IMG/VR virus record: IMGVR_UViG_3300037070_005035
Span: 4,261-68,260 of that record
Length of the DNA stretch: 64,000 nt
From: a virus
Reading direction: 5' to 3' (one strand)
How positions within the stretch are numbered: position 1 is the stretch's first letter; each line of letters begins with the position of its first letter. The position numbers and the translations under genes are program-made. The notes below the pieces were generated by a model that worked only from the letters and a program-made list of their open reading frames with translations, was not told the origin of the DNA and did not search any database. Positions 13,267 to 49,641 of this stretch are shown piece by piece.

Positions 13267-14817
13267 CTATACGGGATACATGAAATGAATGACTTCCCCC
13301 GTCGCCAGGGGAGGATCGCCAGCCCCTGGGGCTGACACATTGGGCGGGGTATTCCAGACAATCGAAGCGCCGGCCTGTAGAAAATGCACACTTACAACGC
13401 AACCCGCCAAGTTCGGCCGCGTAATATGGACGGTATTCAAGGCCAGTGGAGTTGATGGCAGCAGAAAGCTTTGTGAAGCGGCCTCGCCCACGGTGATCGT
13501 GTGAATCCCAAACGTCACGCCGCCCACTGCTGGAGAAAACCACTCCTGGGCCGTCGCCCCGGCATTCATACGAAGCTGCTGGAGACCGGTACCCTTGGGG
13601 ATGCGGATTAAGTCGGTACCGTCGTGGCCCAACAAGTCGCCCTGTGTTGTAAGCGGCAGATCAAGACCAGTGGCGCCAGTGCCGCGCGGATAATCCAACA
13701 CGAAGACCTGGGAGTGCAGCGCGATATCACTCACGCCGATATAGTAGAAGACTTCCTCTTCGCCTTCATCAGCATGTTCGTAAAGCTCAGTCGTGCTATT
13801 CCAGGTATATAGCCGGTCGTTGTCATTCGCTCCATAAATGAGCGGGCTACCAGGCAGGAGCGAAGTCAGGACGTTGGCGACTTCAGACGAGGAAAAAACT
13901 TCGATGTGATTGACATCCGGCACACCGCGCAATGTGGCGATCTTCTGCACGTCATTATCAATCGCGGAAACCACCACATACGGCTTGCCATCAGCCGCCC
14001 AGGCGATTTGCTTGCCATTCGAGGCCGTCGTTAGGCCGTGAGCTGGACTGTATACAGTCTGTACGGCAGTGCCATCCGCACCATCCGCTCCATCGGCTCC
14101 ATCGGCGCCCGGATCGCCCTGTGGTCCAGGATCGCCCTGGATACCCTGAATGCCCTGGAGGCCCTGGATACCCTGAATGCCTTGAATGCCCTGTGCGCCG
14201 TCTTCGCCATCAACTCCATCAATGCCATTGGTGCCGTTGGTGCCGTTGGTACCATTAGTTCCAGGAATGCCCTGTATCCCCTGGATACCTTGCGTCCCGG
14301 GAGCACCCGCAATTCCCTGGATTCCCTGAACACCTTGAATGCCTTGCGGACCTTGCGGACCAACGATCTGGCCGACGTCGACGTAGATCGAGCCATTGCA
14401 GACCCACAGGTGGCCAGTATCCTCAGTGATGAGCCCCTCTCCAGCAACAGCACAACTTCCCGGCAAGCTCCCGGCATCCGGCACACTGCCGGTAATGGTG
14501 ACACTGGAGCCATCCATTCCGTCCATGCCTGGAACACCCTGCGCTCCCGCCACGCCCTGGATGCCCTGGATACCCTGTAAGCCGTCCGCGCCGTCCTCGC
14601 CATCAATACCATTGGTGCCATCAATACCATTGGTGCCGTTGGTGCCGTTGATGCCATCCTGGCCATCGACTCCAATCGGCCCCTGGGTGCCTTGCGGGCC
14701 CTGCTCACCCGGAAGACCTTGCGCGCCTTGTGGTCCCGGCGGACCTTGCGGACCAGTTCCACCACCGCCTCCACCACCATCGCAACAGTGGCTTTGCCAC
14801 CAGTCATTGAGATACAT
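13267..14817 (-). CDS. Collagen-like (Gly-X-Y) fibre protein
   Basis: Long GPQ/GIQ/GTN triplet runs; LTTQGDLL motif. Confidence 0.85.
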   Translation of the reverse strand: MYLNDWWQSHCCDGGGGGGGTGPQGPPGPQGAQGLPGEQGPQGTQGPIGVDGQDGINGTNGTNGIDGTNGIDGEDGADGLQGIQGIQGVAGAQGVPGMDGMDGSSVTITGSVPDAGSLPGSCAVAGEGLITEDTGHLWVCNGSIYVDVGQIVGPQGPQGIQGVQGIQGIAGAPGTQGIQGIQGIPGTNGTNGTNGTNGIDGVDGEDGAQGIQGIQGIQGLQGIQGIQGDPGPQGDPGADGADGADGADGTAVQTVYSPAHGLTTASNGKQIAWAADGKPYVVVSAIDNDVQKIATLRGVPDVNHIEVFSSSEVANVLTSLLPGSPLIYGANDNDRLYTWNSTTELYEHADEGEEEVFYYIGVSDIALHSQVFVLDYPRGTGATGLDLPLTTQGDLLGHDGTDLIRIPKGTGLQQLRMNAGATAQEWFSPAVGGVTFGIHTITVGEAASQSFLLPSTPLALNTVHITRPNLAGCVVSVHFLQAGASIVWNTPPNVSAPGAGDPPLATGEVIHFMYPV

Positions 14818-16523: not shown

Positions 16524-18142
16524 GGCAACTCACATTTCACCATCACGACTTTACCATCGAATTGAGAACCATCGGTGACCCGCATGTGCAGGTCTCCACC
16601 ACTGGCCGGAACAACCAAGGCCCGATCGATATTCACCAGTTCATAACCATCGCCGAAGTCGGCATAGAACTGCACCGTGTAATGCTCGCCACAACCATGG
16701 GTCGATTCCGGAATCGTCATCGCCGAGTAGCCGCCGCTCGGCGTGCCCCAATCAGCAATCAGGAACTCCTCGACGTAAGTCGTCGCACCGGCGGCTGTGC
16801 TGGTGAATGTGATCTCATCAGGATTACTGAGCGTGATCGTCATCCCAGTACCAGGAACCAGCGTTAGCGTATCCGTCACGGAATCCGCCACCGCACTGCC
16901 ACCAGTCGAAATAGCGATCGTCTCGAAAAGATTCTGATTCGTATTGGGCGATGAGTTAGTAATCGTGATCGTATCAGCCGCGCTAAGCGTGATCGCGATA
17001 CCAGTCCCTGGAACAAGAGTGAGCGTATCTGTCGGAGAATCCGCCACCGCACTGCCACCAGTCGAAATCGCCACCGTCTCAAATAGATTCTGATTGACGT
17101 TCGGTGCCGTATTGGTGATCGTAATCGTGTCAGTAGTCGCATTGGTAGTAATCGCGATCCCCGTGCCATTCACCAGCGTCAGCGTATCGGTTGCGCTATC
17201 GGCCACAATGCTCGATTGGGTGGCCACCGCAATTGTCTCGAATAAATTCTGATTCGTATTCGGCGCCGTGTTAGTAATCGTAATCGTGTCAGTAGCCGCA
17301 TTAGTGGTAATCGCGATTCCAGTACCGTTGACCAACGTTAACGTATCGGTCGCACTGTCAGCCACAATACTGGACTGAGTAGCGACGGCGATTGTTTCGA
17401 ATAGATTCTGCACACCGCCCGGCGAGGTGTTGGTGATCGTGATTTGGTCAGCCGCGCTGAGAGTGATTGCTATGCCAGTTCCCGGAACAAGAGTCAGCGT
17501 ATCAGTTGGGGAATCGGCTACCGCACTACCACCAGTGGAAATGGCTACAGTCTCGAAGAGATTTTGATTCGCTCCAAACGGCGCATCAAAATGAAAGTCC
17601 CAAGCGGCCCCATCGTATGTCCAGGCACGCACTAGATTATCGTACCGCTCAATGTGCGAATCACCCTCGATCGGCCCCGCTGGCGGAGTAACCGGTGCCG
17701 CGCCAGGAGCACCGGCGGCACCTACCTCGACTGAGAATGTCTGGTTGCCATCCGCTTCGGCGTCACTGCCATCAACGCCATTTGTACCGTTGGTGCCATT
17801 GGTGCCATTCGTGCCATTGGTACCATTGGTCCCATTAACGCCATGGCAGATGTAGAACAATTGATCGACTTCGCCGACCGCCAATGTGCCGTCGCCGTTA
17901 TCGTCCACGCCGACTTCGATCTTCCAGCCGCCGCCCGGGCAATTCACGCCGACCGCCTCGACCGTGGCCTTGATCAGACTGTTATTGCCATCATCACCGT
18001 CGATGCCATTCGTGCCATTCGTGCCAGCCGTGCCGGGATTACCTTGTGGGCCAGTCGGGCCAGGCGGACAATCCTCGCACGTACCCGTGCCACCACCACC
18101 CGTCGTGCAATCAGTAATCCACCAATCATTTATTACTGGCAT
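16520..18142 (-). CDS. Fibre protein with short collagen stretches and five ~51-aa tandem repeats
   Basis: QNLFETxA...ADSxTDTLTLVxGTGxxIT unit x5; GTN runs. Confidence 0.75.
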   Translation of the reverse strand: MPVINDWWITDCTTGGGGTGTCEDCPPGPTGPQGNPGTAGTNGTNGIDGDDGNNSLIKATVEAVGVNCPGGGWKIEVGVDDNGDGTLAVGEVDQLFYICHGVNGTNGTNGTNGTNGTNGTNGVDGSDAEADGNQTFSVEVGAAGAPGAAPVTPPAGPIEGDSHIERYDNLVRAWTYDGAAWDFHFDAPFGANQNLFETVAISTGGSAVADSPTDTLTLVPGTGIAITLSAADQITITNTSPGGVQNLFETIAVATQSSIVADSATDTLTLVNGTGIAITTNAATDTITITNTAPNTNQNLFETIAVATQSSIVADSATDTLTLVNGTGIAITTNATTDTITITNTAPNVNQNLFETVAISTGGSAVADSPTDTLTLVPGTGIAITLSAADTITITNSSPNTNQNLFETIAISTGGSAVADSVTDTLTLVPGTGMTITLSNPDEITFTSTAAGATTYVEEFLIADWGTPSGGYSAMTIPESTHGCGEHYTVQFYADFGDGYELVNIDRALVVPASGGDLHMRVTDGSQFDGKVVMVKCELP

Positions 18143-37254: not shown

Positions 37255-38271
37255 ATGTCGAGTCTGACGAAACGACCGAGCGGCATTTACTGGCTGCAAT
37301 TTACCCTTGACGGACGGAAGCATACAAGGAGCCTGGGCCGGATAGATCGCGGCCTGGCGATGAGCATTTGTGGGAAGTTTGAAACATTGATGAGCGAAGG
37401 AAAGACGGGGCAAGCCATGGAGACAGTCACCGCTCAGGTCGCTCCCGAGCAGCGACAGTCAATGATTCATCTATGGGTGCAAGAATATCTGAAGGCCCTG
37501 GGCTGCAAGCCAGCCACGATGAAGACGCACTACCAAACCCTGGACCTGCTAACGGCTCAGTTCGGCACGTGCTCATTCCGGGATGTGGATTTCACTGGAG
37601 CACAAAAATTCGTAGCGTCACTCGGTCGATTCGCCGGGTCGACGCGGGCGAAGCATATCAGTCGAACCCGGCAATATTTCGATGCCGCAATCGATAGCGG
37701 AATCATCAGCAAGAATCCGTTTGAGTCATTTAAGTGCGGTAGTCAGCACAACCCGACACGATCACATTTCGTCAGCCGGGAGGACTACGAGAAACTCATG
37801 GCAGCCGCACCGAACCAAACGCTGAGGACAATCATCTCCTTGTCGAGAATCGGCGGCCTACGAATTCCGAGCGAGCTGCGCGGGCTCAAGTGGACAGATA
37901 TCGAAGCGGAAAAGATTTCGATCACGGGACACAAGACAGCCAGTCGCGCGTTCCCGATGTTCCCGGAGCTGAAGGAAGAACTAAACGCGCTCAGTAGGAA
38001 TCGCATGAACAATGGTACAGTAATCTCATATGACGGATGTTTGACCTATGCACTCCGGCAAATCATCCAACTGGCCGGATTGAAACGGTGGCCGAGAATT
38101 TGGCACAACATGCGAGCCTCTCGGATTACCGAGCTGAGTGACAAATTCCCTGTCCAAGTCGTGTCTACCTGGATGGGAAATTCGCCTGAAATCGCACTTC
38201 GACATTATCTCTCAGTGACAGATTCCCACTGGGAACAAGCCTTAAACGAGACGCGACAGGACAGAACATGA
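37255..38271 (+). CDS. int: Tyrosine recombinase/integrase
   Basis: SRIGGLRIPSE (R), WHNMRASR (HxxR), WMGNS...LRHY (Y); upstream TTGACC...TATTAT promoter. Confidence 0.9.
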   Translation: MSSLTKRPSGIYWLQFTLDGRKHTRSLGRIDRGLAMSICGKFETLMSEGKTGQAMETVTAQVAPEQRQSMIHLWVQEYLKALGCKPATMKTHYQTLDLLTAQFGTCSFRDVDFTGAQKFVASLGRFAGSTRAKHISRTRQYFDAAIDSGIISKNPFESFKCGSQHNPTRSHFVSREDYEKLMAAAPNQTLRTIISLSRIGGLRIPSELRGLKWTDIEAEKISITGHKTASRAFPMFPELKEELNALSRNRMNNGTVISYDGCLTYALRQIIQLAGLKRWPRIWHNMRASRITELSDKFPVQVVSTWMGNSPEIALRHYLSVTDSHWEQALNETRQDRT

Positions 38272-38349
38272 CACGACAAGACCGGACTGGGCAAGACCAG
38301 ACTTGGTCCGACATGACCAGACGTGACGTGACACGACAAGACTTGATTT
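38245..38349 (+). repeat. GAC-NN pentamer array 1 (21 units), putative guide RNA
   Basis: NN = GA GC AG AG AT AC AA CG TG AA CA TT CC AT CA GT GT AC AA TT TT; overlaps integrase stop. Confidence 0.9.
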
Positions 38350-38354
38350 TCAAC

Positions 38355-38372
38355 TGTGGAATATAAACCACA
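38355..38372. promoter_or_regulatory. Imperfect palindrome TGTGGAA-TATA-AACCACA (operator copy 4)
   Basis: Directly after array 1, upstream of csrA-like gene. Confidence 0.45.
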
Positions 38373-38394
38373 ACTTTAACCGAAGGATCAACCA

Positions 38395-38649
38395 ATGCTA
38401 GTTTTAGGACGACGAAGAAATGAATCAATTACCGTAGTAACTCCGAGCGGCGAGCGGATCGATTTTAAAATCGTGACCATCGATGGCGGATACGCGAGAA
38501 TTGGCATCACGGCCGAGAGGACGATACAAATTTACAGAAGTGAACTAGGAGAACGAGAACATGGGACTGAAGGACAGATCGGGCGCGAAATGGCTGCAGC
38601 TAACACGGGGCCGCTTAGTCCTCAAATCAAAGGACGGAACGACCAGTGA
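38395..38649 (+). CDS. csrA: CsrA/RsmA-family RNA-binding regulator
   Basis: MLVLGRRRNESI...ARIGITA...IYRSEL. Confidence 0.85.
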   Translation: MLVLGRRRNESITVVTPSGERIDFKIVTIDGGYARIGITAERTIQIYRSELGEREHGTEGQIGREMAAANTGPLSPQIKGRNDQ

Positions 38650-39310
38650 ACATGATTCATTGGAAGGCCGGATAATCGGAATCGATTTCCGTGACAACGT
38701 CTACGACGGCAAGACGACCAGACAGATTCATCTGATATTCGATGATGGAGATGACCAATATCAACTTGCGATCGCGGTTGGGAGCGGATACGGGAAACAG
38801 TTGATTCTGAAGCTTGCGACAGCGGACCTGCTCCAGCCAGTGGAAATCACTCCGACTTTTGCGGAGGATGGGCCGCGCAAGAACTCCGGGATGTTCGTCA
38901 GCCAGTTCGGCCAGCATCTAAAACAGCTTTGGACGCGAGACAACCCCGGGCCACTACCGCCACTGAAAGAGGTTGTCGTGAAGGGTCAAACAGTCTGGGA
39001 TGACACCGAGCAGTGTGAGTTTCTGGAAGAGTACGTTACCAGCCAGCTTGTGCCACAGATTAAGCAGGGCATCACGGTTGAACCAACTGATATGCCGCCA
39101 GCAGGCGGCGACACCGAAGCGACCACGGAGCTACTAAAGCTGATCAGCAAGACTCTGAAGGATGTCCAGCCCGGCGACAACTCGAAGCTGGCAACGATCA
39201 AGGCTCGGATCGAGGCCAACAAGGACAAGCTAGGCGGAGATTACCCGTTGGCATTGGAGTTGTGGTCGGGAGCGGTCGACAGATTGAAGGAAGATCATAC
39301 ACCGTTTTAA
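38561..39310 (+). CDS. Putative ssDNA-binding/recombination protein
   Basis: Beta-rich N-domain, KGQTVWDD, acidic EDHTPF tail typical of SSB-like proteins. Confidence 0.5.
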   Translation: MGLKDRSGAKWLQLTRGRLVLKSKDGTTSEHDSLEGRIIGIDFRDNVYDGKTTRQIHLIFDDGDDQYQLAIAVGSGYGKQLILKLATADLLQPVEITPTFAEDGPRKNSGMFVSQFGQHLKQLWTRDNPGPLPPLKEVVVKGQTVWDDTEQCEFLEEYVTSQLVPQIKQGITVEPTDMPPAGGDTEATTELLKLISKTLKDVQPGDNSKLATIKARIEANKDKLGGDYPLALELWSGAVDRLKEDHTPF

Positions 39311-39314
39311 TCCT

Positions 39315-39394
39315 GACGCGACCTGACGAGACTTGACTGGACGAGACGGGATGCGACATGACCCGACCTGACGGGACGCGACAAGACTTGATTT
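39315..39394 (+). repeat. GAC-NN pentamer array 2 (16 units)
   Basis: NN = (CT) GC CT GA TT TG GA GG GC AT CC CT GG GC AA TT TT. Confidence 0.9.
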
Positions 39395-40109: not shown

Positions 40110-40334
40110 ATGGTATTCGCGTTTGTGTTTTTTGTGATTCTGATTGGCTCTTGGGCGGCCTGGGAATTTATTTCATCGCCAGTCGTCACTGATGATAGAT
40201 ATGAAGAATTCTCGACCCGACATGACATGACGCGACGAGACGAGACCGGACTAGGCGAGACGAGACCGGATGGGACAAGACAGGACGTGACGAGACAAGA
40301 CTTGATTTTTTCCGGAGATAACGACGCCGCATAA
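40110..40334 (+). CDS. Small single-TM protein whose reading frame runs through array 3
   Basis: AAGGAG RBS; hydrophobic N-terminus. Confidence 0.5.
   Translation: MVFAFVFFVILIGSWAAWEFISSPVVTDDRYEEFSTRHDMTRRDETGLGETRPDGTRQDVTRQDLIFSGDNDAA
40214..40308 (+). repeat. GAC-NN pentamer array 3 (19 units)
   Basis: NN = (TC) CC AT AT GC GA GA CG TA GA GA CG GG AA AG GT GA AA TT TT. Confidence 0.9.
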
Positions 40335-40452
40335 CTCGACCTGACTCGACAGGACATGACGGGACGCGACTTAACTGGACAAGACTCGATCAGACGTGAC
40401 TCGACCAGATGCGACAGGACCCGATGCGACAGGACCCGACAAGACTTGATTT
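40333..40452 (+). repeat. GAC-NN pentamer array 4 (24 units)
   Basis: NN = TC CT TC AG AT GG GC TT TG AA TC CA GT TC CA GC AG CC GC AG CC AA TT TT. Confidence 0.9.
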
Positions 40453-40470: not shown

Positions 40471-40803
40471 TTGATGGAAATGGGTATCGTGACAATCGAC
40501 GGGGCAATTCATGGCGAGCGAGGTGAAACACAAAGACTAATTGCCGATGAGGGCGTGCGGTGGATCTGCCTGCTGCTCAAAAAGAATGCCGACTACGGCT
40601 GCTCTATCTGGGACGAGCCAATGCTATGTCCAGGCATGTCGTCCTCGTCGGCAATCCTAGTACGGATGGGGGATAAGATCAATCGATTGAAATCGCTGAT
40701 GGCCACTCATGCCGAAGTATCTGATGAGTCGATCGACGACACGCTACGGGACCTGGGAGCGTACTGCCTACTGCTACTGGCCAATCCGAACAGGAATAAA
40801 TGA
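40471..40803 (+). CDS. DUF1599-like (nucleotide-modification-associated) protein
   Basis: KKNADYG...VRMGDKINRL...ESIDDTLRDLGAY. Confidence 0.75.
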   Translation: MMEMGIVTIDGAIHGERGETQRLIADEGVRWICLLLKKNADYGCSIWDEPMLCPGMSSSSAILVRMGDKINRLKSLMATHAEVSDESIDDTLRDLGAYCLLLLANPNRNK

Positions 40804-41583: not shown

Positions 41584-41788
41584 GACCAGGCTCAACTCGA
41601 CATGACAAGACCGGACACGACAAGACTCGAATCGACTTGACGTGACAAGACCGGACTGGGCAAGACATGGCGAGACATGGCGCGATGCGATTAGACGCGA
41701 CGAGACAAGACACGACCCGACTCGACGAGGCCAGGTTAGACATGACTAGATTAGGCCAGACCCGACCCGACGAGACTTGACTTGATTT
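41584..41788 (+). repeat. GAC-NN pentamer array 5 (41 units)
   Basis: Uninterrupted 5-bp phase; ends GACTTGACTTGATTT. Confidence 0.9.
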
Positions 41789-41812
41789 TTTTGAAAGGGG
41801 ACACATGAAACA

Positions 41813-41902
41813 AACCTGACAAGACTAGACGAGACGCGACAGGACAAGACAGGACCCGACTGGACTAGTTTCGATTTGATCTGATCTGACAAGACTTGAT
41901 TT
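41813..41902 (+). repeat. GAC-NN pentamer array 6 (18 units), directly upstream of RAMP-like gene
   Basis: NN = CT AA TA GA GC AG AA AG CC TG TA TC TT CT CT AA TT TT. Confidence 0.9.
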
Positions 41903-41921
41903 TTTTCAAAAGGAAAACCAA

Positions 41922-42497
41922 ATGAAAGCCGCGACTGTATTATTGAAAAGCTTACCGGGCAGCGAACTATTCTTCGGCAAGCCCAAGACCTCCAAGAAGC
42001 TGGCCAACGAGACGCACGACCAATTCGACCAGAGGACTTGGAAGGAATCGGTATCGCACCACGAAGGCAAGCTGTTTATCCAGCCATTCGCTTTGAAGAA
42101 CGGTCTGGAGTCATCAGCAAAATGGCTATCGATACCGATTCCCGGCGAGGGGAAGAAGACATTCACGAAGCGTTTCGTGAGCGGAATCCTGGTCGTCGAT
42201 AAGCTGTGGCTGACAGACGACACGGGCAAGGCATTGACCATGGAGGACGTGGAACCGCTATCGCTATTCGTCCCCTCCGATGGTGTACGCGGAAGCGGCA
42301 AGCGGGTATTTAGGATCTTCCCTTCCGTCAAGTCATGGATGGCTTACGCGGAAATTCATGTTATTGATCAGAAGATCGATAAAAAAATTCTAGAGGAGCA
42401 CCTGACGTGCTGCGGCAATTTCGTTGGATTCGGCTCGATGCGAGCGCAGAATGGCGGGATCAACGGACGATTCTCGATTGAAGAATTGCAGTTTTAA
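41922..42497 (+). CDS. Stand-alone RAMP/Cas7-like RNA-binding protein, putative effector of the pentamer arrays
   Basis: beta1 ATVLLKSL; LFIQPFALKNGL (like Cas7 xIPxxxxKGxxR); C-terminal Gly loop GNFVGFGSMRAQNGGINGRF; arrays on both sides. Confidence 0.75.
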   Translation: MKAATVLLKSLPGSELFFGKPKTSKKLANETHDQFDQRTWKESVSHHEGKLFIQPFALKNGLESSAKWLSIPIPGEGKKTFTKRFVSGILVVDKLWLTDDTGKALTMEDVEPLSLFVPSDGVRGSGKRVFRIFPSVKSWMAYAEIHVIDQKIDKKILEEHLTCCGNFVGFGSMRAQNGGINGRFSIEELQF

Positions 42498-42580
42498 CCT
42501 GACGCGACACGGCATGACCAGACATGACATGACGAGACGCGACAAGACATGACGAGACCGGACGCGACAAGACTTGATTT
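42496..42580 (+). repeat. GAC-NN pentamer array 7 (17 units)
   Basis: NN = CT GC AC AT CA AT AT GA GC AA AT GA CG GC AA TT TT. Confidence 0.9.
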
Positions 42581-42588
42581 TACAAATC

Positions 42589-42723
42589 AACACGACAAGA
42601 CGAGACGCGACACGATAGGACAACACAAGACCGGACTCGACGGGACGTAACTGGACTGGATCGAACTAGACATGACCCGGCTCGACCTGATTCGACAGGA
42701 CAACACCTGACAAGACTTGATTT
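42589..42723 (+). repeat. GAC-NN pentamer array 8 (27 units)
   Basis: NN = AC AA GA GC AC AG AA AA CG TC GG GT TG TG CG TA AT CC TC CT TC AG AA CT AA TT TT. Confidence 0.9.
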
Positions 42724-42745
42724 TCAACCTACAGGATAAAAAAGC

Positions 42746-43267
42746 ATGGAATCATATTCATTTCGACACGGATTGCATCACTCAACCTCGCTGGCCATCG
42801 ACCTGCTGGAAAAAGGCAAGCCGGGCGACACGATCGACCGGTCGCGGATGGCTGAGCAGATCGGCGAGCCGTGTGAATGCGGCGAGGTTGGCTATCAGCA
42901 CGTGCGGAGCGCGATCAATCACGTACTGAACCGATCGGGGGTGGCCTGGGAATGGGACAGGAATTTGAAAGTCTGGCTATGCCTGGACGATCCGCAGCGC
43001 GTGAACAGCCACTCCAGAACCAATAAGGCGGTATCCAGGAAGGCCCGCAAGGGGCTGCGGCTGGCATCCACGATTAATACGAAAAAGCTATCCAACGACG
43101 AGCGGCGCGACCATCAACTGAATATCGTATCCGGCTCGCTTTCGGTGGCGGCGATTTCGTCGCCATTCAGGACACGATTGGCCAATAGTGGAGTAGGAGA
43201 CAGGTTGCTGAATACCGACCAGCTCGCCAATCAACTGGCGGCGATGCTGTCCAATGGCTCAACCTGA
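42746..43267 (+). CDS. Hypothetical basic helical protein, candidate partner of RAMP-like protein
   Basis: 173 aa, wHTH-like N-half, between arrays 8 and 9. Confidence 0.6.
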   Translation: MESYSFRHGLHHSTSLAIDLLEKGKPGDTIDRSRMAEQIGEPCECGEVGYQHVRSAINHVLNRSGVAWEWDRNLKVWLCLDDPQRVNSHSRTNKAVSRKARKGLRLASTINTKKLSNDERRDHQLNIVSGSLSVAAISSPFRTRLANSGVGDRLLNTDQLANQLAAMLSNGST

Positions 43268-43465
43268 CCGGACTGGACATGACATGACTCGATTTGACAA
43301 GACTCGACAGGACGAGACTCGGTAGGACATGACAAGACTGGACGCAACACGACGTGACGGGACAAGACATGACTTGATGAGGCGCGACTGGACTTGACTC
43401 GACCTGATAAGACCGGATGCGACACGGTGAGACTTGACGAGACTTGACTAGACAAGACTTGATTT
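43261..43465 (+). repeat. GAC-NN pentamer array 9 (41 units)
   Basis: Uninterrupted 5-bp phase; ends GACAAGACTTGATTT. Confidence 0.9.
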
Positions 43466-43714: not shown

Positions 43715-43794
43715 GACATGACATGGCACGTCACGACTCGACATGACAGGACCCAACATGACGGGACGAGCCCTGACAAGACAAGACTTGATTT
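43715..43794 (+). repeat. GAC-NN pentamer array 10 (16 units)
   Basis: NN = AT AT AC AC TC AT AG CC AT GG GA CT AA AA TT TT. Confidence 0.88.
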
Positions 43795-44167: not shown

Positions 44168-45029
44168 AGTCGACTTGGCCTGGATGCCGCCTGGCAAGCG
44201 GACTCGGCTGGGAGAGATCTCAAGCAGGCTAAAGGAGAATGATATTCAAGGGGCCAGGTGGCTAATCATCAAAGCGGAGCTGGTTGCGGAAGCAAAGGGG
44301 ATTTTCGATGCCCACTCAGGCAAGACGGAAACCTGGGGTGGCTGGTGTGAGCAGAATGATATGGATCGCAGTTTATCGTACCATCTGATATCGATTTGGG
44401 AGAGATTTTCCACCGCCAGTGGGCTGCTGGAGAATTTCAGCGTATCGGCCATTCGGCATCTGGGGGTGTGTAGCTCGGACCAGCCGGCCAAGCATGCCAT
44501 CATATTGGCCACGGATGGCGAGTTCGTTTCATTTTCAACGGCCAAGCAGATTGTATCCAAGTGGACGGAAGGCGGAGCGGCGGCGATGAGCCAAGCTGCT
44601 GATGATGACGAAGCGGACGAGGCGCCAGTTAGTAGCGCCCCCGCCGCTCCGCGGCAACTCCTTCCTGGAGGAAATGATAGTCCTGGGGGAGGCGGGCGGG
44701 AGCCGGTGCGGTCTGCCGGAGGAGGCAGGGAATCGGCGCCGGCCATTAACCGTGGCACGACCGTTTCGTACACACCAGCGACGACTGCAAAACCAATCAA
44801 GGAATCCTGCATAGGCAAGGAATTCAATCCGATCAATCAAATCATACGTGCGAAGGAAAAGATCAACCAACTAATGCGGATTCTGGATGAAGAGGATCTA
44901 AAGCCGACATTAGGCCAGAGGTGGAACGCCGGACTTGTGAATCTCTGCGATCAATTACTTAAATCATTGGGAGACGCGGAGAAAAATGTCTATCGAAAAC
45001 TCGAACAACGGCAGGGGAAAAGAAATTGA
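44124..45029 (+). CDS. DUF3102-like DNA-binding protein
   Basis: LVAEAK...TWGGWCEQN-MDRSLSYHLISIWERF helical domain, disordered linker. Confidence 0.55.
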   Translation: MPRKELTLSNHQPSKVDLAWMPPGKRTRLGEISSRLKENDIQGARWLIIKAELVAEAKGIFDAHSGKTETWGGWCEQNDMDRSLSYHLISIWERFSTASGLLENFSVSAIRHLGVCSSDQPAKHAIILATDGEFVSFSTAKQIVSKWTEGGAAAMSQAADDDEADEAPVSSAPAAPRQLLPGGNDSPGGGGREPVRSAGGGRESAPAINRGTTVSYTPATTAKPIKESCIGKEFNPINQIIRAKEKINQLMRILDEEDLKPTLGQRWNAGLVNLCDQLLKSLGDAEKNVYRKLEQRQGKRN

Positions 45030-45039
45030 TTTTAGGTCC

Positions 45040-45222
45040 ATGATAGCCCGTGAGCTGAAGCGCCAAGAAAAGAGCGTGACTTGGTTGGCCCAACAGGGTG
45101 GGTGTCCACATCGAAATAGCATTTATCGATTTCTGCGCAAGGAGCGGGACGTGAGATCAGCGTCATTGGCGGCGATGCTGCGAGCCCTGGGACTTCACAT
45201 GATCGGACAATATGGAAAATGA
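45040..45222 (+). CDS. Cro/XRE-like HTH protein
   Basis: SVTWLAQQGGCPHRNSIYRFLRKERD...LAAMLRALGL; start may be 44986. Confidence 0.7.
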   Translation: MIARELKRQEKSVTWLAQQGGCPHRNSIYRFLRKERDVRSASLAAMLRALGLHMIGQYGK

Positions 45223-45227
45223 CAGAT

Positions 45228-45312
45228 AACATCACGCGACTAGACCGGACTAGACATGACGAGATTTGACCGGACTGGATGGGACCAGACGAGACGCCAC
45301 AAGACTTGATTT
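45228..45312 (+). repeat. GAC-NN pentamer array 11 (17 units)
   Basis: NN = AT GC TA CG TA AT GA TT CG TG GG CA GA GC AA TT TT. Confidence 0.88.
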
Positions 45313-45323
45313 ACATTTGAGAC

Positions 45324-45498
45324 AACCCGACGCGACTCGGCACGACCAGAAGCGACTTGACAGGACGAGACCTGACTAGACAAGACTTGACTAGACCGGA
45401 CGAGACAAGACTGGACTGGACTTGACCAGACGTGACCTGATGGGACTAGGTCTGGCCCGACAAGATGCGACCAGACGAGACGCCACAAGACTTGATTT
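45324..45498 (+). repeat. GAC-NN pentamer array 12 (35 units)
   Basis: Shares 3' end GACCAGACGAGACGCCACAAGACTTGATTTAC with array 11. Confidence 0.9.
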
Positions 45499-45943: not shown

Positions 45944-46236
45944 AACACAAGCCAAGAACCGTCAATTCACCGCAATACCGCCATTCAGATGGATCGGTGA
46001 ATACATTGTTTGACGCCTTGTTGGACTTCGAATCAGATCAGCACTTCCGCCCACGCCGTACCAAGCCCACCGATGCCCCGCCTGGCACACCGGAAAAGAT
46101 CTCCGTGCTCTCCACTCGCCTCGAGCGCGGCGAGGAGCTGCACCACGAGAATGATTACCGCTACCCGACTCCGCCGCATTGGATGATGATCATCCAGGAT
46201 ATCGAAGATGAAGTATTTCAGCAGAAAATGAGGTAA
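45829..46236 (+). CDS. Hypothetical protein (PTxAxPGxxEK...LHHxxD motif); start uncertain
   Basis: PTDAPPGTPEKISVLSTRLERGEELHHEND, a motif I associate with planctomycete proteins. Confidence 0.5.
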   Translation: MRFVLVWMPTRRDRQSYDHRIRLDSRTGCGTGMARRTIKHKPRTVNSPQYRHSDGSVNTLFDALLDFESDQHFRPRRTKPTDAPPGTPEKISVLSTRLERGEELHHENDYRYPTPPHWMMIIQDIEDEVFQQKMR

Positions 46237-46237
46237 A

Positions 46238-46262
46238 AGTTGTGGAACAGTATTCCACAACT
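46238..46262. promoter_or_regulatory. Palindrome AGTTGTGGAA-N5-TTCCACAACT (operator copy 5)
   Basis: Between convergent transcription units. Confidence 0.6.
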
Positions 46263-46272
46263 AACGAAAGGG

Positions 46273-46337
46273 AAATCAAGTCTTGTCGCGTCCTGTCGAG
46301 TCAAATCGGGTCTTGTCGTATCCTGTCAAGTCGCGTC
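46273..46337 (-). repeat. GAC-NN pentamer array 13 (13 units), minus strand
   Basis: NN = GC TT AG AC AA CC TT TC AG GC AA TT TT; follows minus-strand gene 46366-46848. Confidence 0.88.
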
Positions 46338-46365: not shown

Positions 46366-46848
46366 CTATTCTCCCCACGTACTTGGTTCCTGCAGTAAAT
46401 CCAGCAGTAGTTTCAACCTAGGATCACGCTTGGCCGGCTGCGCTGCCAACCAGATTAAATACTCACGATCAATGGCCATGACTTCGGCTACTGATTTTCC
46501 TTTGTACTTGCCAAACCAGAATTTTAGCTCGTCGCCATTAGGAGCAACATTCGAATCAGCTAGCTCGAAATTACCACTTGCTCGTGCGCGACGGCCAAGA
46601 TCGCGATCATTGTATTTCGACCAATCATCACGCGGCATCTCAGCGTTCCCTTGCCGCATCCCAATACGTCTCATACGCTTCGTACAAACATCACGTACAT
46701 CGATCGCATCCCTACATCGCTTCCAAATCCGTCTCGCGCCCCGAACCCCAAGCTCGCCGAAGACCGTCGAAGCTGGTACCAACTTTCCGACTTGGAAGGC
46801 GCGGGCAACCAGCGTGAGTCGTGTCGTTTCCACTGTTATTTTCTGCAA
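46366..46848 (-). CDS. Protein with DUF3820/ExoX-C-like domain
   Basis: FWFGKYKGKSVAEV...REYLIWL. Confidence 0.7.
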   Translation of the reverse strand: MQKITVETTRLTLVARAFQVGKLVPASTVFGELGVRGARRIWKRCRDAIDVRDVCTKRMRRIGMRQGNAEMPRDDWSKYNDRDLGRRARASGNFELADSNVAPNGDELKFWFGKYKGKSVAEVMAIDREYLIWLAAQPAKRDPRLKLLLDLLQEPSTWGE

Positions 46849-47200
46849 TTAGGCAATTGCTAGCATAAAGGGGGCCTAGGAAATAATGTGTAAGTCTTAG
46901 CCAGATGGCCCTTTGGCCCCTTATTACCGTCCTAACGAGAACGGGCGAGTGCCGCGACCCCTGCGGTCGAAGTTATCTTCGGTTCACCCGGCCTAGATCA
47001 TGTCATCGTGCCGGTTGTGCATGACTGGCCGGCTTGCCAAGCCAGCGCTTACAGCCAAGAATTTCATATTGCCAGGCGACCGAACCACCAGCGACCTGGC
47101 AATAATCTTTTCACAGCCGTTGTTAGTCATGCTCTCGCGCTACCACCGAGCTACTAATTACACCGGGAATTCTAACTGTACACGCTTCCCGGACGCGCAT

Positions 47201-47355
47201 TAAAAAACCCCCAGCTTTTGAGGGCTGAGGGCTGTTTTTGCGTTGTACACGGCCACGTGCAAGGACGCAAAGCTTCAAATTGTACATGTCGCCATCCTTG
47301 TGATGTGGCCGTGTCTTCCTGACAGAATCTTATCTCACCTTCACCATCGCGTCAA
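47201..47355 (-). ncRNA. Putative ~120-nt small RNA or attenuator with own promoter and terminator
   Basis: TTGACG (47355-47350)-17 bp-TAAGAT (47332-47327); long hairpin 47314-47247; CCCTCAGC/GCTGGGGG stem then T6. Confidence 0.5.
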
Positions 47356-47918: not shown

Positions 47919-47988
47919 GACGTGACCTGACGTGACGTGACCTGACCAGATCCGACCAGACAGGATGTGACGAGACAAGACTTGATTT
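47919..47988 (+). repeat. GAC-NN pentamer array 14 (14 units)
   Basis: NN = (CT) GT CT GT GT CT CA CC CA AG GT GA AA TT TT. Confidence 0.88.
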
Positions 47989-48285: not shown

Positions 48286-49641
48286 GTGGCACGGATGGCC
48301 GGAAAAGGATCGATTACGGAAAAGTTCGTTGCCCTACTGCGGGAGAAATCGATACCGGGGGCGGACCTCTCCCTTGAATATCGCTTTCATTCCTCTAGAA
48401 TATTGAGATTGGATTACATGTTTTTAAATCTCTGTATTTTTGAGGAGAAAATGGGAAAGCCTGGACTGCACTTAACAGCCGTTTGTGAAATATGCAAAAG
48501 CACGTTTCGACAAGCAAGAATCGATCAGATTTATTGCAGTTCAAAATGCGGAGGCATTGCTTGGAGGAATCGAAACGAGGCAAGGATTGGGACTAGGACC
48601 GGGGTTCTACCCCCCAGATGCAGACAGTGCTTGTCCATATTCAAAAGAGAACGTCGCGGCCAGTTTTACTGCTCGAAAACTTGTTGTGAAAAATCGTACA
48701 GAGAACGACTGAAAAAGCGAAGCAAATACGGAAAGGGCAAGAGCTGGGCGAGCGGCACGATTAAAGTGGATCGAGCCGCCTGTGTTAAATGCGGAAACAA
48801 GTTTTACTGTCCACCAGTGAGACGGAGGAGGTCTGTATCTGGAGATGTGTTTTGTTCAGAAAAGTGCAGGGCTCTAGTGATCGCTGAAAAAATTAAGCGA
48901 AACCGTCCTGTCCTTGTGTGCTCGTGGTGCGGAATTGAATTCACGATTCCACAATGCCTTCGCGGCCGTCGCAAATTTTGTCGAGACGAGTGCCGTCGTG
49001 CTGCTAAATCAGCCAAGCCGAAAGCCTGCAAGCAATGCGGCAAAATGTATGTTGGACCAAATCAGAACTACTGCTCGATGGCTTGTTATGGATTATCAAA
49101 TACAAAATCCATCAAGGCGAAGGATAAGCAGTGCGTCTGCGAAACATGCGGGAAGAAATTTACCGGATCGTCTTACGACGCACTGAAAGGCATGTCGAGA
49201 TTTTGTGGCAGGCGATGCTTCGCGGCTTATAGATCAAAAACAGCCAGTGCATCACACAGCTACGCCAAGGGCGGACGCAGGACGGACCTTGACGGGTTAT
49301 ATGTTAGGTCGTCGTGGGAGGCGAATTACGCTCGCTATCTTAATTTGCGAGTCTCGCGTGGCGAAATCTCTGGGTGGAGTTACGAATCAGATACGTTCGA
49401 GTTTCACAAATACAAACGCGGCGTTCGATTCTATACGCCAGACTTCAAGGTCGTGCTGATTAACGGCGAGATTGAATATCACGAAGTGAAGGGCTACATG
49501 GACGGTAGAAGTGCAACGAAGTTAAAGCGAATGGTTAAGCACTACCCTGAAGTAAAGGTGGTACTGATTTGTAAGGAAGAGTATTGGGCAATAGAGCTCT
49601 CGCATAGTGCTGATATCAAACTATGGGAAAGAAAGAAATGA
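48286..49641 (+). CDS. Multi-Zn-finger PD-(D/E)XK endonuclease (homing-type)
   Basis: Six CxxC...(Y/F)CxxxC repeats; RSSWEANYARYL...YTPDF...HEVKGYMD nuclease domain. Confidence 0.8.
   Translation: MARMAGKGSITEKFVALLREKSIPGADLSLEYRFHSSRILRLDYMFLNLCIFEEKMGKPGLHLTAVCEICKSTFRQARIDQIYCSSKCGGIAWRNRNEARIGTRTGVLPPRCRQCLSIFKRERRGQFYCSKTCCEKSYRERLKKRSKYGKGKSWASGTIKVDRAACVKCGNKFYCPPVRRRRSVSGDVFCSEKCRALVIAEKIKRNRPVLVCSWCGIEFTIPQCLRGRRKFCRDECRRAAKSAKPKACKQCGKMYVGPNQNYCSMACYGLSNTKSIKAKDKQCVCETCGKKFTGSSYDALKGMSRFCGRRCFAAYRSKTASASHSYAKGGRRTDLDGLYVRSSWEANYARYLNLRVSRGEISGWSYESDTFEFHKYKRGVRFYTPDFKVVLINGEIEYHEVKGYMDGRSATKLKRMVKHYPEVKVVLICKEEYWAIELSHSADIKLWERKK

What the first reader, a model, noticed from the sequence alone, without database searches (positions are those of the whole stretch)
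42345..42580. Array 7 encodes a variant of the RAMP-like gene itself
Array 7 NN GC AC AT CA AT AT GA GC AA AT GA against gene codons gcg gaa att cat gtt att gat cag aag atc gat (42348-42380): 8 of 11 exact, ungapped. Decoded ATIHIIDAKID versus the gene's AEIHVIDQKID. This is the strongest single match. It suggests a guide against a rival phage's effector gene, or autoregulation of the system.
Basis: partly seen in the sequence, partly recalled or inferred. Interest (0 to 1): 0.85.

Follow-up and report, generated by a model that had tools for sequence, protein, structure and literature searches.

The report
Phage VIPR guide matching own vipr
The repeat array is a guide RNA gene of a phage VIPR system, a CRISPR-like DNA silencer described in 2026, and its two-letter code spells a variant of the phage's own silencer gene, most likely to hit that gene in rival phages.

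Summary
Array 7 (42501-42575) matches codon positions 1-2 of 42348-42380, in frame, at 8 of 11 units. Only 2 of 20,000 shuffles do this in that gene.

The system is already in print as VIPR: a lone Cas7-like Vipr protein plus pentamer vrRNAs whose NN dinucleotides read DNA while skipping the wobble base (bioRxiv 10.64898/2026.04.26.720920). GAC/NN repeat units (10.64898/2026.10.21.760802) and vipr-targeting guides (10.64898/2026.10.15.759431) are also in print.

Evidence found here:
- The 191-aa gene folds as Cas7/Csm3 (Z 11.7).
- It co-occurs with GACNN arrays in 24 of 118 pattern-fetched loci.
- The guide matches its own vipr at 0.65 identity, under the published 0.8 cut-off. It matches a natural allele (P0003) at 0.88, 11 of 13 units. 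That allele's DNA was not seen.
- Three further guides resemble the gene directly upstream of them, and a fifth does so in antisense.
- No such signal appeared in 142 arrays of other phages.

Verdict: a new member of a known kind, probably an anti-rival guide. This scan had already found VIPR systems on other DNA.

The parts
41922..42497 (+). vipr gene: 191-aa lone Cas7-like RAMP protein
   Evidence: No Pfam hit; phrog_4652 of unknown function. AlphaFold model pLDDT 96.5. Foldseek top hit is type VII Cas7 8z4j_J, E 3.7e-6. VIA-align top hit is Csm3 6ae2_B, Z 11.7, rmsd 2.6, 145 residues aligned. 119 homologues found.
42348..42386 (+). Near-cognate (sub-threshold) target-like site of array 7 inside vipr, codons 143-155 (AEIHVIDQKIDKK)
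   Evidence: 8 of 11 units exact (8 of 13 over the informative guide), in frame, with the skipped base at the wobble position. 17 of 26 NN letters match, 0.65.
42501..42575 (+). Array 7: vrRNA repeat tract, 15 pentamer units (14 GAC, 1 GGC) plus NN
   Evidence: The tract is largely unpaired in the centroid fold.
42566..42581 (+). Conserved 3' tail motif GACAAGACTTGATTTT
   Evidence: AAGACTTGATTT closes 13 of 15 arrays and GACTTGATTT closes 14 of 15 (my count).
42574..42590 (+). 7-bp hairpin directly after array 7 (TTGATTT / AAATCAA, 3-nt loop)
   Evidence: Present in both the MFE and the centroid structure. Not shared by all arrays.
42594..42728 (+). Array 8: next vrRNA tract (25 units plus tail), between vipr and the accessory gene
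42746..43267 (+). Candidate vap (vipr-accessory) gene, 173 aa
   Evidence: Found with vipr in 22 of 35 vipr-bearing loci; in the rows printed it lies on the same strand just downstream. 258 homologue clusters. Model pLDDT 93.9 with H-strand-H-H-strand-strand then long helices. Only weak Foldseek rows (E 0.09 or worse), mostly winged-helix DNA binders.
38250..38342 (+). Guide array after the integrase gene; near-cognate site at 38116-38166 in the integrase (ASRITEL...FPVQVVS)
   Evidence: Upstream test reached by 0 of 5000 shuffles. 8 of 19 units exact plus many second-letter matches. It is the best six-frame hit in the window. In frame by my arithmetic.
39315..39387 (+). Guide array after the 249-aa gene; near-cognate site at 39251-39277 (ALELWSGAV)
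   Evidence: p = 0.0022. 6 of the first 9 units exact. In frame with ORF 38561-39310.
40214..40301 (+). Guide array; near-cognate site at 40179-40208, 5 nt upstream of the array (PVVTDDRYEE)
   Evidence: Reached by 0 of 5000 shuffles. 7 of the first 10 units exact; the other 3 differ only in the first letter. The ORF 40110-40334 that holds the site has no real homologues in my loci.
45238..45305 (+). Guide array whose NN are antisense to 45102-45131 in the upstream ORF 44986-45222 (weak HTH_31 hit)
   Evidence: 8 of 9 consecutive units exact on the minus strand. Antisense test p = 0.003. The skipped base falls on the wobble of the + ORF (my arithmetic). HTH_31 E 0.041, below cut-off.
40323..40445 (+). 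Guide array; its best window hit is integrase codons 193-202 (IISLSRIGGL)
   Evidence: Not significant window-wide (p about 0.1).
41584..41893 (+). Three arrays (41584, 41694, 41818) upstream of vipr
   Evidence: No local match.
43266..43458 (+). 39-unit array, probably more than one vrRNA (internal GACTTGAT)
43715..43787 (+). Guide array
45329..45491 (+). 33-unit array
46280..46337 (-). The only minus-strand array, in the sense of the minus-strand ORFs beside it
47919..47981 (+). Guide array

Best explanation
Array 7 is a vrRNA gene of a GAC-anchored VIPR system. By analogy with the published SUSP1 system, Vipr protomers (the 191-aa Cas7-like protein) would polymerise along the transcript, one per pentamer. 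They would bury each GAC and present each NN. The NN would then pair with one strand of double-stranded DNA, two bases out of every three, and block transcription. All of that is inferred, not shown here.

The guide's code spells codons 143-155 of a vipr gene, but not of the resident one. The resident copy differs at 5 of 13 units (identity 0.65). At least one natural allele (P0003, 61% identical protein) differs at only 2 (0.88). The likeliest use is therefore to silence the vipr, and perhaps the downstream vap, of related competing phages, while the resident allele escapes.

Shown here: the match and its significance, the fold, the link between arrays and the gene, the preference for a 1-nt skip, and the absence of any self hit at 0.8 or more. 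Inferred: RNA expression, filament formation, DNA binding, and the identity of the real target.
For: - System identity. The fold is Cas7/Csm3. There are 15 strand-consistent GACNN arrays with a shared tail. 24 of 118 loci fetched only by a 7xGACNN pattern encode a clear homologue at E < 1e-40, and 9 more a weak one. A conserved downstream partner gene is present. GAC/NN arrays beside Vipr-like folds are in print (10.64898/2026.10.21.760802, passages seen).
- Code. Comparing skips of 0, 1, 2 and 3 bases against the 300 nt upstream on both strands, 0, 4, 1 and 0 guides reach p < 0.01.
- This guide. 8 of 11 units match in frame, reached by 2 of 20,000 shuffles. Against 119 homologues it matches 11 of 13, which 0 of 20,000 shuffles reached. 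It is the only one of 15 window arrays, and none of 5 L007 arrays, that matches this family at p < 0.01.
- Self versus foreign. Identity is 0.65 to self and 0.88 to P0003. No guide reaches 0.8 anywhere on the window; the maximum is 0.75. The paper's own-contig control gave the same result.
- Precedent. [quoted passage not shown]
Against:
- No target with the 10 fixed units was found in IMG/VR (0 hits).
- The same pattern in JGI metagenomes hit 8 unrelated genes: 6 sugar N-formyltransferases, 1 YjgF-like and 1 epimerase. Each matches 10 of 13 units, so matches of this grade arise without any relation in very large databases.
- 93 GAC-type guides from 25 loci found no 9/10 target in a 2.4-Mb pool apart from those pattern-fetched loci, and counts at 8/10 equal shuffles (33 v 32.8).
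- In SUSP1 a GGY>GAY change was among the scaffold substitutions tested, and the text says that perturbing GGY abolished silencing. The mechanism is therefore transferred from a clade with a different anchor.
- How many mismatches this system tolerates is unknown.
Confidence: 0.6

Rival explanations
1. Autoregulation. The partial match lets the Vipr-vrRNA complex bind weakly inside the resident vipr gene, 120 nt upstream of the guide's own gene, and damp expression of vipr, the guide and vap. It would act as a built-in brake.
For: The site lies in the same transcription unit, just upstream of the guide. Four other guides also resemble the sequence just upstream of themselves. Partial-match autoregulation by CRISPR guides is known to me from the literature (recalled, not read here).
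Against: Identity of 0.65 is under the 0.8 used in print for targets, and the paper says that perturbing NN pairing abolished silencing. The closest relative L007 keeps no match between the array after its vipr and its own vipr or the family (p 0.16 and 0.43). A foreign allele fits better than self. No local signal appeared in 142 arrays of 71 other loci.
Confidence: 0.15
2. Relic of guide birth. The guide's NN were written from, or recombined in with, the neighbouring gene at some time. They have since drifted, and the guide may have no present target.
For: Four sense matches all begin at unit 1 of the array and lie 5 to 120 nt upstream of it, in frame (my arithmetic). The matched stretches have a similar share of exact units: 8/11, 6/9 and 7/10.
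Against: No mechanism is known that writes NN from codons. The mismatched units of array 7 coincide with natural alternative residues of the family: T at position 2 in 21 of 119, I at position 5 in 39 of 119. That fits a real foreign allele better than random drift. Arrays at the same positions in L007 show no trace of their neighbours.
Confidence: 0.13
3. Chance resemblance to vipr. The guide's real target is elsewhere, for example a sugar N-formyltransferase gene whose GATIHIMDxKID motif fits 10 of 13 units.
For: 6 of the 8 metagenome hits to the gapped pattern are N-formyltransferase genes, in frame. Window-wide, 8/11 hits arise in 46 of 100 shuffles once all arrays are pooled.
Against: The match lies in the adjacent gene, in frame: 2 of 20,000 shuffles and 16 of 1000 after local look-elsewhere. 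Four other guides show the same local pattern; Fisher p over all 15 guides is 4e-8, against 0.45 for the downstream control. The metagenome hits come from a search space many orders larger than the 119-protein family.
Confidence: 0.07

Closest known systems
VIPR systems, type II exemplars Escherichia phage SUSP1 and a Pseudomonas fulva prophage (bioRxiv 10.64898/2026.04.26.720920; structure 10.64898/2026.04.26.720927)
   Same: A lone RAMP of about 20 kDa in a phage, followed by an accessory gene. Pentamer arrays of a fixed triplet plus NN end in an invariant 3' tail. The NN match coding DNA with the wobble base skipped, on either strand. There is no self hit at 0.8 or more.
   Different: The anchor is GAC, not GGY. 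The tail is a short AAGACTTGATTT with no evident pseudoknot. 15 arrays are interleaved with small genes over 10 kb instead of flanking the two genes. No sequence similarity to GenBank phages by tblastn. No expression or binding data.
Non-canonical VIPR arrays with GAC/NN or CAC/NN units (bioRxiv 10.64898/2026.10.21.760802; passages seen only)
   Same: The same repeat unit beside a Vipr-like fold.
   Different: In the passages I saw, that paper reports the repeat pattern and the fold but no targets and no test of the skip rule for these clades. Whether this phage's clade is among its 21 clusters cannot be told without the supplements.
vipr-targeting vrRNAs of SUSP1-family phages (bioRxiv 10.64898/2026.10.15.759431; section 8, Discussion and Methods 17, 25, 26 read)
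   Same: A guide aligned to the wobble of a vipr coding sequence near the gene's end, with a self score lower than the foreign score.
   Different: There the vipr-targeting guides are described mostly as solo guides on phages that have lost vipr. Here a VIPR-positive phage carries the guide directly behind its own mismatched vipr.
Type III / type VII CRISPR backbone subunits (Csm3, Cmr4, Cas7)
   Same: Fold: Z 11.7-11.1, with the top Foldseek and VIA-align rows all Cas7-type chains.
   Different: No CRISPR repeats or other cas families among the genes scanned. The period is 5 nt, not 6, and three of every five guide bases are fixed.

Membership tests
VIPR | Lone RAMP (Vipr) with RRM core, glycine-rich loop and thumb, outside a CRISPR-cas locus | tested here: met
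   The model matches Csm3, Cmr4 and Cas7 over residues 1-191. Glycines G165, G169, G171, G179 and G182 are nearly invariant. 20 neighbouring ORFs gave no cas family. No CRISPR-like repeats in TRF.
VIPR | vrRNA: tandem pentamers of a fixed triplet plus a variable NN (canonical GGY/NN) | tested here: met
   Of 290 units, 234 are GAC, 21 GAT, 13 GGC, 8 AAC and 5 GGT, and all 16 NN are used. 88 pattern matches against 0.01 expected. The triplet is GAC rather than GGY; GAC/NN is listed in print as a non-canonical VIPR unit.
VIPR | Invariant 3' tail after the repeat tract | tested here: met
   AAGACTTGATTT closes 13 of 15 arrays. No conserved pseudoknot was looked for beyond one fold.
VIPR | NN read the target with a 1-nt skip, the skip on the codon wobble, on either strand | tested here: met
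   Skips of 0, 1, 2 and 3 give 0, 4, 1 and 0 guides at p < 0.01. Four sense matches are in frame, and one antisense match has its skip on the wobble (my arithmetic). This rests on sub-threshold matches to the phage's own genes. No target at 0.8 or more was seen as DNA.
VIPR | No self-targeting at 0.8 NN identity or more on the own contig | tested here: met
   The best self identity per guide is 0.59-0.75. That scan covered the 64-kb window, not the first 4,260 bases of the record.
VIPR | Accessory gene (vap) beside vipr, predicted to act on DNA | tested here: inconclusive
   The conserved 173-aa neighbour is present in 22 of 35 vipr loci. Its fold gives only weak winged-helix rows, E 0.09 or worse.
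VIPR | Carried by a virus or provirus | tested here: met
   IMG/VR virus record of 68,260 b, with integrase, exonuclease and HNH/resolvase PHROGs.
VIPR | Placement within the published Vipr phylogeny or one of its seven types | not testable with these tools
   No published Vipr sequence was at hand. tblastn against GenBank phages found nothing. The supplements are closed.
VIPR | vrRNA is expressed and co-purifies with Vipr; the RNP binds dsDNA and represses | not testable with these tools
   No wet data. See Tried and rejected for the search of sequencing runs.
CRISPR-Cas type III | CRISPR repeat-spacer array plus Cas10 and other subunits | tested here: not met
   No such repeats and no cas families in the scanned neighbours.

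The most novel reading that the evidence does not exclude
In this phage each of four or five guides sits directly behind the resident, mismatched copy of the very gene it is coded for: integrase, a 249-aa gene, a small ORF, vipr and an HTH-like gene. Guide and resistant allele may form tightly linked 'poison-antidote' cassettes. Such a cassette would silence the sensitive allele of a co-infecting relative and would travel together in recombination, much as homing endonuclease genes sit beside their resistant sites (that comparison is recalled, not tested). Alternatively the adjacency records how VIPR guides are born without Cas1. The main texts of the VIPR preprints that I read or term-searched do not describe this, but their supplements were closed. 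An earlier unchecked note of this scan (e1-5759963) reports one similar case on other DNA.
Probability: 0.3. Interest if true: 0.7.

Novelty: new member of a known kind. Interest (0 to 1): 0.4.

Why it matters
VIPR is a months-old discovery, and its code has been shown at the bench only for GGY-anchored systems of enterobacterial and Pseudomonas phages.

This soil phage gives statistical evidence that a GAC-anchored clade uses the same skip-the-wobble rule. It also shows a VIPR-positive phage carrying a guide for its own gene family while its own copy stays under the targeting threshold.

Several guides lie next to their near-cognate resident genes. If that arrangement is not an accident of one genome, it offers a handle on two open questions: how VIPR guide repertoires arise and are inherited without an adaptation machine, and how self-targeting is avoided.

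Tried and rejected
- My first idea was a TRAP-like ring protein binding GAC triplets in 5' leaders, with the NN as inert spacers and the match as chance (stated). I dropped it once the local statistics, the Cas7 fold and the VIPR papers came in.
- Promoter or terminator reading of the tail: consensus scans were no better than shuffles, 10 v 9.4 and 12 v 11.3.
- Rfam: nothing for the arrays; one sub-threshold Trp_leader row at 47199-47300. No tRNAs.
- Megablast and tblastn against GenBank phages found no match.
- Two early literature searches were blank or irrelevant.
- Planted or artefactual sequence: rejected by the identical public contig.
- Generality of the local match: absent in other phages. 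146 arrays at 8/11 or more gave 4 v 3.2 in shuffles. Of 142 arrays in the upstream test, 0 reached p < 0.01 and 2 reached p < 0.05. Of 78 arrays in 24 vipr loci tested locus-wide, 5 reached p < 0.05.
- Natural targets: none in the 2.2-2.4 Mb pool and none in IMG/VR for the array-7 pattern. The metagenome hits were unrelated genes.
- Integrase and 249-aa homologues gave no allele at 0.8 or more for their guides; the best were 11 of 17 and 7 of 13.
- Genome contigs: P0003 found no relative. A 12-sequence alignment found 5 distant MAG homologues of 35-43% identity, not analysed further. The host remains unknown.
- Sequencing runs: no RNA holder listed, so nothing can be said on expression.
- Runs X4-X6 gave only single 151-nt contigs.
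- The supplements of all four preprints are closed. Their type logos, target tables and self-score tables may already cover this clade or the adjacency.

Full report
WHAT IS THERE. The window is bases 4261-68260 of a 68,260-base IMG/VR virus record. Between 38250 and 47981 lie 15 arrays of five-base units, 14 on the + strand and one on the - strand. Each array runs in the sense of the gene that follows it. Of 290 units, 234 carry GAC, 21 GAT, 13 GGC, 8 AAC and 5 GGT, and the other two letters use all 16 dinucleotides. A four-unit GACNN pattern matches 88 times against 0.01 expected. AAGACTTGATTT closes 13 of the 15 arrays. It starts three bases after the stop codon of ORF 41922-42497 and is followed by a 7-bp hairpin.

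THE OBSERVATION. The NN of units 1-11 match the first two letters of codons 42348-42380 at 8 of 11 places, ungapped and in frame.
- Shuffling the NN order reaches 8 in that gene, in frame, in 2 of 20,000 trials. For this 11-mer it is the only 8/11 hit on either strand of the window.
- The look-elsewhere cost is real. Pooling all arrays, all sub-windows and the whole window, an 8/11 hit occurs in 46 of 100 shuffles, and the counts at 6 and 7 equal the shuffle means. The same holds in a 2.2-Mb pool of 120 other loci.
- What is not expected is the place. Within 600 nt of its own array, any strand and frame, at least one array reaches 8/11 in 16 of 1000 shuffles and two arrays in none. The real data have two.
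- The DNA is genuine: a public contig assembled independently covers 41900-43300 without a difference.

THE SAME PATTERN IN OTHER GUIDES OF THIS PHAGE. I scored the decoded NN string against the three-frame translation of the 300 nt upstream, using BLOSUM62 ungapped segments and 5000 shuffles.
- Arrays at 38250, 40214 and 42501 were never reached by a shuffle. The array at 39315 has p 0.0022 and the one at 45238 has p 0.022 in sense and 0.003 in antisense.
- Fisher's p over all 15 guides is 4e-8, against 0.45 for the 300 nt downstream.
- In a six-frame scan of the whole window, three guides have their best hit within 155 nt upstream on the same strand, and two more have their second best there.
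- The four sense matches are in frame with the upstream ORF (coordinates, my arithmetic). The antisense match puts the skipped base on the wobble of ORF 44986-45222.
- Trying 0, 1, 2 or 3 skipped bases gives 0, 4, 1 and 0 guides at p < 0.01.
- The matches are to the integrase (ASRITEL...FPVQVVS), the end of a 249-aa gene, a small unverified ORF, vipr, and a gene with a weak HTH_31 hit.

WHAT THE GENE IS. Pfam finds nothing and PHROGs only an unnamed family. With 44 homologues the model has pLDDT 96.5. The listed Foldseek rows down to E about 4e-4 (71 matches in all at E 0.001 or better) and the VIA-align rows down to Z 7.0 are CRISPR RAMP chains, nearly all Cas7-type. They are led by type VII Cas7 (E 3.7e-6) and Csm3 6ae2_B (Z 11.7, rmsd 2.6, 145 aligned). 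So 'RAMP-like' is right.

The link to the arrays is genetic. Of 118 viral loci fetched only because they hold seven GACNN units in a row, 24 encode a clear homologue (E < 1e-40) and 9 a weak one within the flanks held. A 173-aa gene just downstream recurs in 22 of 35 vipr-bearing loci. Its model suggests a winged helix followed by long helices, but no strong structural match.

WHAT IS KNOWN. A search for Cas7-like phage repeats and earlier notes of this scan led to four 2026 preprints.
- 10.64898/2026.04.26.720920 (Results, Discussion and four Methods sections read) describes VIPR. It has a lone Vipr RAMP, usually a vap gene, and vrRNAs of 9-16 GGY/NN pentamers with an invariant tail. The NN pair with dsDNA by a '1-nt skip rule' whose skipped base falls on the codon wobble. 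Either strand can be targeted and there is no PAM. Natural targets lie in competing phages, satellites and prophages, 'some' in other VIPR systems. Targets are called at 80% NN match or more, and no self hit reaches that threshold.
- 10.64898/2026.04.26.720927 (two Results sections read) shows one protomer per repeat, the triplet flipped out and held by thumb and G-loop, and the NN presented.
[quoted passage not shown] Self scores are lower than foreign scores, and a guide on a recombinase active site is shown at work.
- 10.64898/2026.10.21.760802 (passages only) lists GAC/NN among non-canonical VIPR repeat units beside Vipr-like folds.
The system and the code are therefore in print, and so are the GAC unit and the idea of guides against vipr.

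ARRAY 7 IN THAT LIGHT. Over the 13 informative units the guide matches the resident vipr at 8 units, 17 of 26 letters or 0.65, which is under the published threshold. No guide reaches 0.8 anywhere in the window; the maximum is 0.75.

Among 119 homologues, P0003 (61% identical) reads ATIHIMDDKIDEA, which fits 11 of 13 units, while all others fit 8 or fewer of the first 11. None of 20,000 shuffles reaches 11 against this family. Every residue concerned fixes its first two codon letters, so this implies 23 of 26 letters, 0.88.

The units that differ from the resident gene carry residues common in the family: T in 21 and I in 39 of 119. Array 7 is the only one of 20 arrays tested that matches this family at p < 0.01. 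The array behind the vipr of the closest relative, L007, does not (p 0.43). This favours a guide against rivals' vipr over a conserved self-brake.

AGAINST AND OPEN.
- The gapped pattern with 10 fixed units finds nothing in IMG/VR.
- In JGI metagenomes it finds 8 unrelated genes, 6 of them sugar N-formyltransferases whose motif happens to fit. This is a warning that 0.77-0.88 matches arise in very large searches.
- No natural target of any of 93 GAC-type guides was found in the DNA I held.
- The local guide-gene resemblance is peculiar to this phage. It is absent from 142 arrays of 71 loci (0 at p < 0.01), from L007 (p 0.11-0.62), and from 78 arrays of 24 vipr loci tested locus-wide.
- The reason these guides sit directly behind their near-cognate genes is not explained by the papers as far as I could read them. 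Linkage of a guide with a resistant allele, or a trace of how guides arise, are the readings I keep open.
- Expression, RNP formation and DNA binding are all inferred from the SUSP1 work, in which a GGY>GAY change was among the scaffold substitutions tested.

VERDICT. It is a new member of a known, very recently described kind. This scan had already met VIPR systems on other DNA.

Noticed in passing
window 38116-38166 and 37831-37860 (integrase 37255-38271): Two guides (arrays at 38250 and 40323) have their best hits on two conserved stretches of the phage's own tyrosine-integrase gene (ASRITEL... and IISLSRIGGL). Integrase homologues fit the first about as well as the resident gene does, 10-11 of 17. 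This recalls the published SUSP1 guide on a satellite recombinase active site.
   Followed up: partly
   Followed up: partly
L127, L128, L129, L130, L131, L132: Sugar N-formyltransferase genes (PF00551, with PF18216 in four of them) carry GATIH(I/M)MDxKID. In frame this fits 10 of 13 units of array 7. It could be coincidence or a second target class.
   Followed up: partly
window 43266-43458 and 45329-45491: Arrays of 39 and 33 units exceed the published 9-16 repeats. The first contains an internal GACTTGAT, so these may be two or three vrRNAs end to end.
   Followed up: no
window about 38343-38390 (+) and about 46225-46280 (-): The same hairpin-forming element (GTGGAATA...CCACAAC followed by T's) follows the tail of the array at 38250 and of the minus-strand array. 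It may be a shared terminator.
   Followed up: no
L062, array at 2431-2566 of the reverse-oriented locus: A 27-unit array in another vipr-bearing contig has a strong hit (segment score 44.5, p 0.01 or less in 100 shuffles) about 1.25 kb away on the opposite strand of its own locus.
   Followed up: no
window 14072-14754 and 17777-18067; 16830-17410: Runs of 9-base tandem repeats and a 156-159-base tandem repeat in the presumed structural region.
   Followed up: no
window 40471-40803, 46369-46848 (-), 48286-49641: Neighbouring genes with a DUF1599 'nucleotide modification associated' domain, an ExoX-like C-terminal domain, and an HNH/DUF1064 resolvase-like protein.
   Followed up: no
L008: A 58%-identical vipr with its vap partner but no strict GACNN run. 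Only two loose chains appear by a laxer rule, so its repeat unit may differ.
   Followed up: no
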